Source: a virus
Taxonomy: Duplodnaviria > Heunggongvirae > Uroviricota > Caudoviricetes
IMG/VR virus record: IMGVR_UViG_2511231131_000008
Direction: 5' to 3' (one strand)
Length of the DNA: 46,763 bases
Position 1 is the stretch's first letter. Each line of letters opens with the position of its first letter. A program made the translations under genes and the position numbers. Of the stretch, positions 39,824 to 40,680 are shown one piece after another. Under the pieces are notes generated by a model. The model worked only from the letters and a program-made list of their open reading frames with translations, had not been told where the DNA came from and ran no database searches.

Positions 39824-39914
39824 AAAACTCTCCTGTTATTTCGAACATGAGGGTAACAATAGTTACATTGTAATGTCAACCATAGTGACATTGCTTGGTA
39901 GTAACATTGATTAC
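39824..39914. promoter_or_regulatory. Divergent immunity promoter/operator region (oR-like)
   Basis: Dyads GTAACAATAGTTAC (39853-39866), TGTCAACCATAGTGACA (39874-39890), GTAACATTGATTAC (39901-39914); minus-strand TTGACA -35 element at 39874-39879. Confidence 0.6.
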
Positions 39915-40589
39915 ATGAAAAACACTATCAGCGAACGTATTCGGAATCGTCGAAAAGACGTTGGACTAACCCAAGAGCAGGTTGCAAAAGCAATCGGCAT
40001 AACTCGTGTATCCGTAACAAAATGGGAAAATGGCTCTTCAAAACCTGACGGTGAGAATTTGCATCTGCTGTCAAAATTGCTTTCAAAATCTCCTGAATGG
40101 ATTCTTTATGGAAAGGACGATCACGATAAAATCGATGTTCTGCGTCTGAATCAGCACCTTTACATTAGTGACAACATCGCCCGGTTGCCCGTTTTAACGT
40201 GGGAACAGGCTGGTTATTGGGATATGAGTTGCCCAGTAACCGAGATTCCTGGTATTAAGAATTGGGTTGATGTCATGACAAAAACCGCTGAAAACTCTTT
40301 TTTATTGCACGTTGAGGGAGATTCGATGACGAACTCTAACGGCCTCCCAACAATCCCAGACGGATCTACCGTGCTGATCACACCATGCTCAAGTAACATT
40401 AGAGAACTGGTGGGAAAAATAATCTTAATCCAATTGGAAGGTACGCCAAACGTAACACTAAAAAAAGTTGCGATTGACGGACCAAACATCTATCTGTTGT
40501 CACTGAATCCGCTTTACAAACCCATTGAACTGAATGTCGGTTACACTATTAAAGGTAAAGTTTCACAAATACATCAATACTTAGACTAA
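39915..40589 (+). CDS. CI-like repressor (HTH_XRE + S24 LexA-type autopeptidase)
   Basis: Start at MKNTISERIRNRRKDVGLTQEQVAKAIGITRVSVTKWENG (ATG 39915); C-terminal S24 domain with GDSM and KK motifs. The longer ORF from 39666 would overlap the cro-like gene. Confidence 0.85.
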   Translation: MKNTISERIRNRRKDVGLTQEQVAKAIGITRVSVTKWENGSSKPDGENLHLLSKLLSKSPEWILYGKDDHDKIDVLRLNQHLYISDNIARLPVLTWEQAGYWDMSCPVTEIPGIKNWVDVMTKTAENSFLLHVEGDSMTNSNGLPTIPDGSTVLITPCSSNIRELVGKIILIQLEGTPNVTLKKVAIDGPNIYLLSLNPLYKPIELNVGYTIKGKVSQIHQYLD

Positions 40590-40596
40590 GTCAGAA

Positions 40597-40619
40597 CCCG
40601 CATTCATTGCGGGTTTTTT
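40597..40619 (+). terminator. Rho-independent terminator after the repressor gene
   Basis: cccgca-ttcat-tgcggg hairpin followed by TTTTTT. Confidence 0.7.
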
Positions 40620-40640
40620 ACACCCCTGGATGTACCTCTT

Positions 40641-40680
40641 GTAACATCATGTTGACTTCAATGGTAACTCTTGTTACCTT
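40641..40680 (+). promoter_or_regulatory. Putative early-left promoter with operator dyad (oL-like)
   Basis: -35 TTGACT (40652-40657); perfect palindrome GGTAACTCTTGTTACC (40663-40678) sharing the GTAAC half-site with the oR-like dyads; -10 weak. Confidence 0.5.

What the first reader, a model, noticed from the sequence alone, without database searches (positions are those of the whole stretch)
39824..40680. Shared GTAAC half-site operators on both sides of an S24-type repressor
Dyads with GTAAC/GTTAC half-sites and a 4-bp spacer occur twice in the cro-repressor intergenic region and once as a perfect GGTAACTCTTGTTACC palindrome next to a -35 element downstream of the repressor gene, giving an oR/oL-like layout. 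A different palindrome (TGTCAACCATAGTGACA) overlaps the cro-side -35 element and may bind the Cro-like or CII-like protein. The repressor has a LexA-type autopeptidase domain, so induction is expected to be RecA-dependent.
Basis: partly seen in the sequence, partly recalled or inferred. Interest (0 to 1): 0.45.

Follow-up and report, generated by a model that had tools for sequence, protein, structure and literature searches.

The report
P22-type prophage operators, new specificity
This is the ordinary on/off switch of a lambda-like prophage in E. coli. Its repressor gene is flanked by conserved GTAAC-N4-GTTAC binding sites laid out exactly as in phages P22 and 21, but with a recognition sequence nobody has tested.

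Summary
GTAAC-N4-GTTAC dyads lie at 39853-66, 39901-14 (one mismatch) and 40664-77, on either side of an HTH+S24 repressor gene (39915-40589).

A matrix built only from relatives' sites scores these three at 19-23 bits. Nothing else in the 46.7 kb window exceeds 12.2 bits.

The sites keep position and spacing in 12 loci whose repressors are 40-100% identical to this one. These include phages ZF40 and AH07. Phage mEp390 has the same layout, but its operator and its recognition helix have changed together.

It is a degenerate middle operator (OR2, 39876-89) fused to the pR -35. The spacing of 23 + 25 bp equals that of the annotated operators of phage 21. A second left operator (OL2, 40632-45) was missed.

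The CII-like protein is a YdaT. Its likely site is at 39601-18, not in the intergenic region.

The repressor has the Ala-Gly, Ser and Lys residues needed for RecA-stimulated self-cleavage.

Verdict: an ordinary lambdoid immunity region and a new member of a known kind. All binding is inferred; none has been tested.

Side observation: the common E. coli allele of this repressor has the catalytic Ser replaced by Ala.

The parts
39186..39611 (-). YdaT-family gene, the functional analogue of lambda CII
   Evidence: Pfam YdaT_toxin, E 1.1e-9. Matches PDB 3c4r at E 7.7e-89 and 8bt1 (CP-933P YdaT) at E 3.7e-81.
39601..39618 (.). Candidate YdaT operator TTGATTTTCATGAATCAT at the cro stop / ydaT start
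   Evidence: One mismatch to the footprinted CP-933P O_M site TTGATT-N6-AATCAA (PMC9986795). It is the only match with one mismatch or fewer in the window. It is conserved in 4 of 4 sampled E. coli relatives, one of them with one central-base change.
39608..39823 (-). cro-like gene (P22_Cro family)
   Evidence: Pfam P22_Cro, E 2.8e-16. The HTH segment is conserved across relatives.
39850..39858 (-). Predicted pR extended -10 (TGtTACCCT on the minus strand), overlapping OR1
   Evidence: It lies 18 bp from the invariant TTGACA. Read from the sequences, the hexamer keeps T1, A2 and T6 (TACnnT) in the nine relatives compared there. This is inferred: the consensus scan did not report it.
39853..39866 (.). 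OR1, GTAACAATAGTTAC
   Evidence: 22.7 bits. The half-sites are conserved in 12 of 12 loci. The site is identical in 79 of 80 IMG/VR loci.
39874..39879 (-). pR -35, TTGACA on the minus strand
   Evidence: TGTCAA is invariant in the 9 aligned loci and always lies 21 bp from the OR1 start. mEp390 has GGTCAA, ZF40 has TGCAAA, and AH07 has no match there.
39876..39889 (.).
   Evidence: Repeat family D1 groups it with OR1 and OL1 at 78% identity. Its offset of +23 is fixed in 12 of 12 loci, and its right half follows each phage's own half-site. Its position matches the middle operator of phage 21.
39901..39914 (.). OR3, GTAACATTGATTAC, abutting the repressor ATG. It contains the candidate pRM -10, TAACAT, at 39902-39907.
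   Evidence: 19.1 bits. It lies +48 bp from OR1 in 12 of 12 loci. The site is a perfect GTAACATTGGTTAC in 76 of 80 relatives. T at position 7 is invariant in OR3 but not in OR1.
39915..40589 (+). Repressor gene, 224 aa: HTH_3 plus Peptidase_S24, with Ala99-Gly100, Ser137 and Lys183
   Evidence: Pfam. The alignment to lambda CI places the cleavage site, Ser and Lys in register. The start codon follows from in-frame stops upstream in L100 and mEp390.
40593..40620 (+). Intrinsic terminator of the repressor gene
   Evidence: Hairpin with dG -15.1 kcal/mol and z -5.0, followed by a U-run. It is conserved in relatives.
40632..40645 (.). OL2, GTACCTCTTGTAAC, a weak site 6 bp upstream of the pL -35
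   Evidence: Repeat family D6, 86% identical to OL1 at a spacing of 32 bp. Relatives carry perfect or near-perfect dyads at the same position (L098, L099, AH07, mEp390).
40652..40657 (+). pL -35, TTGACT
   Evidence: TTGAC(A/T) is conserved in 10 of the 11 loci with a readable oL (L098 has TTGATC) and in 77 of 80 IMG/VR loci.
40664..40677 (.). OL1, GTAACTCTTGTTAC (16-bp dyad 40663-40678)
   Evidence: 19.0 bits. The half-sites are invariant in 80 of 80 relatives, while the 6 bp between the -35 and OL1 show 14 variants.
40672..40680 (+). Predicted pL extended -10 (TGtTACCTT), overlapping OL1
   Evidence: It lies 17 bp from the -35. TAC(C/A)TT is conserved in relatives. The geometry matches the annotated pL/OL1 of phage 21. 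This is inferred.
40855..41007 (+). First gene of the leftward early operon (DUF1391/ydfA-like)
   Evidence: Pfam DUF1391, E 1.9e-30. RefSeq annotation lists dicB, an exonuclease, xis and int further downstream.

Best explanation
This is the immunity region (lysis/lysogeny switch) of a complete-looking lambdoid prophage. The prophage sits next to rspB/ynfA in E. coli 2013C-4465. The switch is built on the P22/phage-21 plan but has its own operator specificity.

Inferred mechanism:
- Dimers of the 224-aa repressor bind 14-bp dyads GTAAC-N4-GTTAC. The half-sites are contacted and the A/T-rich 4-bp centre is not, as in P22 C2.
- OR1 lies between the -35 (TTGACA) and the -10 of pR, centred about -16.5 from the predicted start. 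OL1 lies in the same position in pL.
- Occupancy of these two sites shuts off the cro-ydaT-O operon (minus strand) and the ydfA-dicB-exo-xis-int operon (plus strand).
- OR2 is a weak site fused to the pR -35 and is probably filled cooperatively. OL2 flanks the pL -35.
- OR3 abuts the repressor ATG and contains a conserved TAAnnT hexamer. The repressor mRNA is therefore probably leaderless, as for lambda cI and CP-933P paaR2, and is auto-repressed at OR3.
- The P22_Cro-family Cro is expected to bind the same sites.
- The YdaT protein is expected to act from its own site at the cro/ydaT junction.
- Induction is expected through RecA*-stimulated self-cleavage at Ala99-Gly100 by Ser137/Lys183.

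What is shown: the sequence elements, their statistics, their conservation, the co-variation of operator and recognition helix, and the domain and catalytic-residue alignment.

What is inferred: every binding event, the promoter start points, cooperativity and cleavage.
For: Statistics:
- Four matches against 0.71 expected.
- With a matrix built from relatives only, the top three scores in the window are exactly the three sites.
- The repeat finder independently groups OR1, OR2 and OL1, then OR1 and OR3, then OL2 and OL1.

Conservation across relatives:
- In 12 loci with repressors 40-100% identical to this one, OR1 to OR3 is always 48 bp. OR3 directly abuts the ATG in 11 of 12 and lies 1 nt away in L101.
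- The pR -35 motif at offset 21 is present in 9 of the 12 loci. mEp390 and ZF40 have variants there and AH07 has none.
- In 80 close relatives the OL1 half-sites are invariant, while the adjacent 6-bp spacer has 14 variants.

Co-variation of specificity:
- mEp390 has the recognition helix NRVTVTGWE and GTAGG-N4-CCTAC at all positions, including the OR2 right half.
- ZF40 (SRVTITKWE) and AH07 (SRVSVTKWE) keep GTAAC-type sites.

Match to phage 21:
- The phage 21 record carries annotated operators whose 14-bp cores start at 822, 845 and 870. That is a spacing of 23 + 25 bp, the same as 39853, 39876 and 39901 here.
- Its oL has the same OL2, -35, OL1 order.

Proteins:
- Pfam domains.
- The N-terminal domain matches P22 C2 (E 5.6e-12).
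- The full length aligns to lambda CI with Ala-Gly, Ser and Lys in register.
- In P22 the central 4 bp are not contacted (PMC4267663).
- A terminator separates the repressor gene from pL.
Against: - There are no experimental data for this repressor, Cro or these promoters. Nothing was found in the literature library.
- The consensus promoter scan found no sigma-70 promoter here. Both predicted -10 hexamers match the consensus at only 3 of 6 positions and rely on a TG extension.
- No convincing -35 exists for the proposed pRM. With a leaderless start, OR2 would be centred near -32. Lambda-style activation from OR2 therefore cannot be asserted.
- OR2 and OL2 are weak matches (3 and 2 mismatches) and score below 8 bits with the strict matrix.
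- pR sits about 15 bp differently relative to the operators than in P22/21.
Confidence: 0.8

Rival explanations
1. The 17-bp palindrome TGTCA-N7-TGACA (39874-39890) is a separate operator for Cro or for the CII-like protein.
For: It is a real 5+5 inverted repeat overlapping the pR -35. Cro proteins sometimes prefer sites different from those of their repressor.
Against: - The symmetry is absent in 76 of 80 close relatives, most often as TGTCAACCATAGCAACA (71 of 80). It is also absent in most distant relatives.
- Only the -35 and an operator-like pentamer are conserved.
- The pentamer tracks each phage's own operator, for example CCTAC in mEp390.
- The YdaT protein has a much better candidate site at 39601-39618 (PMC9986795).
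Confidence: 0.06
2. The conserved dyads are bound by Cro only or by a host factor, or are conserved as promoter elements. The repressor would then recognise something else.
For: OR1 and OL1 overlap predicted -10 elements, which could by themselves explain part of the conservation. No binding data exist.
Against: - OR3 and OL2 are not at the -10 of pR or pL, yet they keep the same dyad.
- Both half-sites are conserved symmetrically.
- The dyad changes together with the repressor recognition helix in mEp390.
- The layout equals that of phage 21/P22, whose operators are annotated as sites for the repressor.
Confidence: 0.07
3. The repressor starts at ATG 39873, as RefSeq annotates (238 aa). OR2 and OR3 would then lie inside the coding sequence and the promoter/operator reading of that stretch would be wrong.
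For: RefSeq/PGAP and several gene callers use this start. The frame is open in the E. coli alleles.
Against: - In L100 and in phage mEp390 an in-frame stop lies between the upstream ATG position and the conserved ATG. In L099 and L098 the upstream codon is TTG or GTG.
- The only conserved parts of the 14 extra codons are the DNA motifs.
- P22 C2 and many homologues start at the equivalent of 39915.
Confidence: 0.05
4. The dyads are chance matches in an A/T-rich intergenic region.
For: One extra one-mismatch match lies inside a coding region at 33462, which shows that such matches do occur by chance.
Against: - Shuffles give 0.165 sites at 15 bits or more, against 3 observed. All three observed sites lie within about 830 bp and flank the repressor gene.
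- Positions are conserved across genera.
Confidence: 0.01

Closest known systems
Phage P22 / phage 21 immunity region (C2 repressor, Cro, OR1-3, OL1-3)
   Same: - Divergent repressor and P22_Cro-type cro genes.
- Three right operators with core starts spaced 23 + 25 bp, the repressor-proximal one at the start codon.
- Left operators flanking the pL -35, after the repressor's terminator.
- Dyads with a 4-bp centre, which in P22 is not contacted by the repressor.
- HTH plus S24 repressor (PMC4267663).
   Different: - The half-site is GTAAC rather than TTAAG. The recognition helix is T-R-V-S-V-T-K-W-E against S-N-V-A-I-S-Q-W-E, and the repressor is only about 35% identical. The two are therefore expected to be heteroimmune.
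- The pR -35 overlaps OR2 and OR1 lies in the spacer. In P22/21, OR2 lies in the spacer and OR1 at the start site.
- There are two left operators, not three.
- A YdaT gene replaces a lambda-type cII gene.
Immunity regions of Pectobacterium phage ZF40, Pantoea phage AH07 and coliphage mEp390
   Same: - Layout is identical base for base: OR1 to OR3 is 48 bp, OR3 abuts the ATG, and oL has the order OL2, -35, OL1.
- ZF40 and AH07 also use GTAAC-N4-G(G/T)TAC and a closely similar recognition helix (identical in AH07; SRVTITKWE in ZF40).
   Different: - Repressors are only 41-43% identical overall.
- mEp390 uses GTAGG-N4-CCTAC.
- No paper describing the operators of these phages was found in the library searched.
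Cryptic prophage CP-933P switch (PaaR2 / YdaS / YdaT) of E. coli O157:H7
   Same: - Same cro-ydaT arrangement, with a very closely matching YdaT (E 3.7e-81).
- A YdaT site of the TTGATT-N6-AATCAA type at the end of the cro gene.
- A leaderless repressor gene and oR/oL analogues were shown experimentally there (PMC8630535, PMC9986795).
   Different: - The repressor there is PaaR2, which has no S24 domain and is followed by a toxin-antitoxin pair.
- Its operators are 18-bp palindromes with a GTTTAGTAA consensus.
Lambda CI / Cro with OR1-3 and OL1-3
   Same: - Logic of the bistable switch.
- Positions of the operators relative to pR: about -17, -40 and -64 here, against -17, -41 and -64 in lambda (lambda values from my memory).
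- S24 autocleavage residues.
- Leaderless cI.
   Different: - Operators here have 14-bp cores with a different sequence.
- Position relative to pRM differs by about one helical turn if the mRNA is leaderless.
- There are no rex genes, so oR and oL are only about 0.8 kb apart.

Membership tests
LexA / lambda CI-type self-cleaving repressors (peptidase family S24) | N-terminal helix-turn-helix DNA-binding domain | tested here: met
   Pfam HTH_3, E 1.8e-16, residues 9-63. Matches the P22 C2 N-terminal domain at E 5.6e-12.
LexA / lambda CI-type self-cleaving repressors (peptidase family S24) | C-terminal Peptidase_S24 domain with a Ser nucleophile and a Lys general base | tested here: met
   Pfam PF00717, E 1.1e-17. 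In the alignment to lambda CI (3bdn), vegDSMt aligns with vegNSMt and tlKKv aligns with tfKKl. By my count these are Ser137 and Lys183.
LexA / lambda CI-type self-cleaving repressors (peptidase family S24) | Ala-Gly scissile bond in the linker | tested here: met
   tweQAGyw aligns with shvQAGmf of lambda CI. This is Ala99-Gly100.
LexA / lambda CI-type self-cleaving repressors (peptidase family S24) | Self-cleavage stimulated by activated RecA | not testable with these tools
   This needs an in-vitro cleavage assay or mitomycin C induction.
P22/21-type lambdoid immunity region | Divergent repressor and P22_Cro-family cro genes separated by about 90 bp | tested here: met
   The intergenic region is 91 bp. 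P22_Cro scores E 2.8e-16.
P22/21-type lambdoid immunity region | Three right operators at 0, +23 and +48 bp, the last at the repressor start codon | tested here: met
   Window sites start at 39853, 39876 and 39901, with the ATG at 39915. Phage 21 operator cores start at 822, 845 and 870, with the ATG at 886.
P22/21-type lambdoid immunity region | Left operators around the -35 of a promoter downstream of the repressor's terminator | tested here: met
   Terminator at 40593-40620. OL2 at 40632, -35 at 40652 and OL1 at 40664. Phage 21 has the same order. Only two sites are present here, not three.
P22/21-type lambdoid immunity region | Same operator sequence as P22/21 (TTAAG-N4-CTTAA), meaning the same immunity group | tested here: not met
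   The half-site here is GTAAC. The region is therefore the same kind of switch but not the same immunity specificity.
P22/21-type lambdoid immunity region | Repressor and Cro both bind the operators | not testable with these tools
   This needs EMSA or footprinting. Only co-variation of operator and recognition helix is available.
YdaS/YdaT (CP-933P-type) Cro/CII-analogue module | YdaT homologue downstream of cro, with a TTGATT-N6-AATCAA site at the gene junction | tested here: met
   Matches 8bt1 at E 3.7e-81. TTGATTTTCATGAATCAT at 39601-39618 has one mismatch. The site type was footprinted in PMC9986795.

The most novel reading that the evidence does not exclude
The window carries the rare, still cleavable (Ser137) allele of this immunity module.

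- Its dominant allele has the catalytic serine replaced by alanine (GDAM). That allele was found in 76 of 80 IMG/VR loci and in 4 of 4 sampled genomes.
- The module as a whole is present in 718 of 5,426 complete E. coli genomes.
- The same change occurs with a different codon in a Salmonella relative whose repressor is 69% identical.

If the Ala forms cannot self-cleave, as for LexA S119A and lambda CI S149A (from my memory of that literature), a widespread family of lambdoid prophages has repeatedly been locked against SOS induction. Their operators remain intact.

This would fit with the module never appearing among 50,697 sequenced phage genomes.
Probability: 0.5. Interest if true: 0.45.

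Novelty: new member of a known kind. Interest (0 to 1): 0.25.

Why it matters
- The analysis gives a precise, testable operator and promoter map for an immunity type found in about 13% of complete E. coli genomes, including ST131 and STEC strains. No isolated phage in the collection searched carries it.
- It corrects the annotated start codon of the repressor.
- The map shows that the P22/21 operator scaffold (23 + 25 bp, with the last site at the ATG) is kept across genera while the recognised bases change. This is useful for predicting superinfection immunity groups from sequence.
- It adds no new principle of regulation.

Tried and rejected
- **Genome-contig scan with the repressor.** It returned only distant HTH hits in unrelated MAGs and was of no use. 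A first attempt failed.
- **Consensus promoter/terminator scan.** It found no promoter and missed the obvious terminator, which folding later confirmed.
- **Rfam.** No family matched in the immunity region or the pL leader.
- **Literature.** A search for the exact operator sequence found nothing. ZF40 papers concern Aca2, not cI. A search for natural Ser-less repressors found nothing relevant.
- **My first guess for OL2.** I proposed GTAAC-ATCAT-GTTGA with a 5-bp centre. I dropped it in favour of GTACCTCTTGTAAC at 40632-45, which is where relatives carry perfect dyads.
- **A P22-like placement of pR.** This used a -10 TACAAT in the OR1-OR2 gap. I rejected it because the hexamer is not conserved and has no partner -35.
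- **An OL2-like site 32 bp from OR1 in oR.** None is present.
- **LexA boxes in the window.** There are none, so there is no sign of an antirepressor route controlled by LexA.
- **The extra one-mismatch dyad at 33462-75.** It lies inside the rusA coding region and is within chance expectation.

Full report
**Where the window comes from.** The stretch 39600-40700 is 100% identical to the chromosome of E. coli 2013C-4465. RefSeq annotation shows a lambdoid prophage next to rspB/ynfA. Its genes include integrase, excisionase, an exonuclease, dicB, a Q-type antiterminator and lysis genes. The rest of the window holds large structural ORFs.

**Genes of the immunity region.** All Pfam results are.
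- A P22_Cro-family cro lies at 39823..39608 on the minus strand (E 2.8e-16).
- A YdaT-family gene lies at 39611..39186 on the minus strand.
- An O-like gene follows it.
- On the plus strand lies a repressor with HTH_3 (E 1.8e-16) and Peptidase_S24 (E 1.1e-17) domains.

**Checking the observation.**
- The pattern GTAACNNNNGTTAC with at most one mismatch gives four hits against 0.71 expected. Three of them flank the repressor gene.
- I built a weight matrix only from sites in relatives, leaving the window out. It scores the three sites at 22.7, 19.1 and 19.0 bits.
- The next best score in 46.7 kb is 12.2 bits. Shuffled sequence yields 0.165 sites at 15 bits or more.
- The repeat finder grouped the same elements without prior knowledge. 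It also added two more: 39875-92 with OR1 and OL1, and 40632-45 with OL1.

**How common the module is.**
- The cI-cro segment occurs in 718 of 5,426 complete E. coli genomes, mostly at about 94.7% identity.
- No record among 50,697 phage genomes has it. Only the flanks match at the DNA level, and the best protein match is 42.6% identical.

**Relatives used for comparison.** I fetched contexts for repressors that are 96, 88, 88, 69, 65, 51, 51 and 50% identical to this one. I also fetched three isolated phages whose repressors are about 42% identical: mEp390, ZF40 and AH07.

**Conservation of the layout.**
- In all 12 loci the first dyad starts 48 bp before the last one. The last dyad directly abuts the repressor ATG in 11 loci and is 1 nt away in L101.
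- The pR -35 (TGTCAA on the plus strand) starts 21 bp after the first dyad. It is unchanged in 9 of the 12 loci, variant in mEp390 and ZF40, and unmatched in AH07.
- There are no insertions or deletions between these elements in any of the 12 loci.
- In 80 close relatives the OL1 half-sites are invariant, while the six bases between the -35 and OL1 occur in 14 variants.

**Co-variation of operator and protein.**
- mEp390 has a changed recognition helix (NRVTVTGWE instead of SRVSVTKWE). It has GTAGG-N4-CCTAC at every one of these positions.
- ZF40 and AH07 have a nearly unchanged helix and keep GTAAC-type dyads.
- This co-variation is the best available argument that the repressor reads these dyads.

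**The "different palindrome".**
- Its symmetry is lost in 76 of 80 close relatives, most often as TGTCAACCATAGCAACA (71 of 80).
- What is conserved is TGTCAA (the pR -35 on the other strand) and a pentamer ending in AC at a fixed offset.
- The 14-mer 39876-39889 (TCAAC-CATA-GTGAC) starts 23 bp after OR1 and 25 bp before OR3.
- Its right half is a perfect GTTAC in L099 and AH07, and CCTAC in mEp390.
- The phage 21 record has annotated operators whose 14-bp cores start at 822, 845 and 870, with the ATG at 886. That is the same 23 + 25 bp spacing.
- The element is therefore OR2 of a P22-type tripartite operator. One half is degraded because it doubles as the pR -35.

**The left side (oL).**
- The repressor gene ends in a strong terminator (dG -15.1 kcal/mol, z -5.0).
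- After it come OL2 (40632-45, GTACCTCTTGTAAC), TTGACT (40652-57), six bases, and OL1.
- Relatives carry perfect or near-perfect dyads at the OL2 position.
- Phage 21 has the same order of OL2, -35 and OL1.

**Promoters (inferred).**
- pR would be TTGACA, then 18 bp, then TGtTACCCT.
- pL would be TTGACT, then 17 bp, then TGtTACCTT.
- In both, the -10 overlaps the promoter-proximal half of OR1 or OL1. The hexamer keeps T1, A2 and T6 in the relatives compared.
- The simple scan did not call them, because each -10 matches the consensus at only 3 of 6 positions.

**Start of the repressor gene and pRM.**
- Only the ATG at 39915 is conserved as a start codon.
- In L100 and mEp390 an in-frame stop lies upstream of it. 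In L099 and L098 the RefSeq-type upstream start codon is not an ATG.
- There is no Shine-Dalgarno sequence, because the preceding 14 bases are OR3.
- OR3 contains TAACAT at 39902-07, seven bases before the ATG. The T at position 7 of the dyad is invariant in OR3 in 12 of 12 loci but not in OR1.
- A leaderless, OR3-repressed pRM is therefore likely. Leaderless expression has been shown for paaR2 in CP-933P and is known for lambda cI (PMC8630535).
- I found no convincing -35 for pRM. I cannot say whether OR2-bound repressor activates it.

**The CII-like protein.**
- It is a YdaT. It matches PDB 8bt1 (CP-933P YdaT) at E 3.7e-81.
- CP-933P YdaT was footprinted on TTGATT-N6-AATCAA at the end of the cro-like gene (PMC9986795).
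- The window has TTGATTTTCATGAATCAT at 39601-18, exactly at that junction. It is the only match in the window with one mismatch or fewer. It is conserved in sampled relatives.

**Induction.**
- The alignment to lambda CI puts Ala99-Gly100, Ser137 and Lys183 in register with the lambda cleavage site, Ser149 and Lys192.
- There is no LexA box in the window.
- RecA-dependent self-cleavage is the expected route for this allele.

**A side observation on induction.**
- 76 of 80 IMG/VR loci and 4 of 4 sampled complete genomes of the common allele have GDAM instead of GDSM.
- So do an E. coli relative 88% identical and a Salmonella relative 69% identical.
- The codons are GCG in the E. coli alleles and GCA in the Salmonella relative, against TCG/TCA in the Ser alleles. 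This suggests more than one origin.

**Verdict.** The region is a new, experimentally untested specificity within the well-known P22/lambda type of switch. It is ordinary in kind, and its interest is low to moderate.

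Noticed in passing
window 40323-40325 (Ser137 codon TCG); relatives L020, L102, L096, L107-L110: The catalytic serine of the S24 domain (GDSM) is alanine (GDAM) in 76 of 80 IMG/VR loci and in 4 of 4 sampled E. coli genomes carrying the common ~95% identical allele. It is also alanine in an 88% identical E. coli relative and a 69% identical Salmonella relative. The codons are GCG and GCA against TCG and TCA. The window has the rare Ser form. The Ala forms should not self-cleave.
   Followed up: partly
window 39601-39618: TTGATTTTCATGAATCAT has one mismatch to the footprinted YdaT site of CP-933P. 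It lies at the cro stop / ydaT start and is a likely pRE-type control site.
   Followed up: partly
window 39873-39914: RefSeq (WP_000104592.1) and several gene callers start the repressor 14 codons too early. That 'extension' is OR2, OR3 and the spacer between them.
   Followed up: yes
window 40745-40790; also L098, L099 (two copies), L101, L105 (ZF40), L106 (AH07): A conserved element lies in the pL leader: AAGTAGCC followed by a hairpin whose loop holds GGCGTA(A/T)GAA. The stems differ by compensating changes between ZF40 (CTACC/GGTAG), AH07 (CCCGA/TCGGG) and L101 (TCCGA/TCGGA). It occurs upstream of different first genes. It has no Rfam match, and RNAalifold found only a 3-bp consensus stem.
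   Followed up: partly
window 41085-41096: A boxA-like GCTCTTTAACAA lies after the DUF1391 gene. Relatives L099 and L101 have boxA plus a boxB-like hairpin and an N_peptide-family gene. The window has no N homologue.
   Followed up: no
window 35116-35291 and 31329-31495; 41995-42218: Rfam finds sok antitoxin RNA (121.7 bits, next to hokD) and sRNA STnc100 (99.6 bits). A second, weak STnc100-like copy (34 bits, below the family threshold) lies in the leftward early region.
   Followed up: no
whole immunity module, window 39600-40700: The module is present in 718 of 5,426 complete E. coli genomes. It is absent as cI-cro DNA from 50,697 phage records, which match only the flanking mosaic segments.
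   Followed up: partly
L099 (Arsenophonus), repressor residues around the cleavage site: The Ala-Gly cleavage site is replaced by Ile-Ser (GEQISKW) although Ser and Lys are kept. This may be another naturally uncleavable variant.
   Followed up: no
window 33462-33475: An extra one-mismatch dyad, GTAACCTCTTTTAC (11.6 bits), lies inside the rusA coding region. It is within chance expectation.
   Followed up: partly
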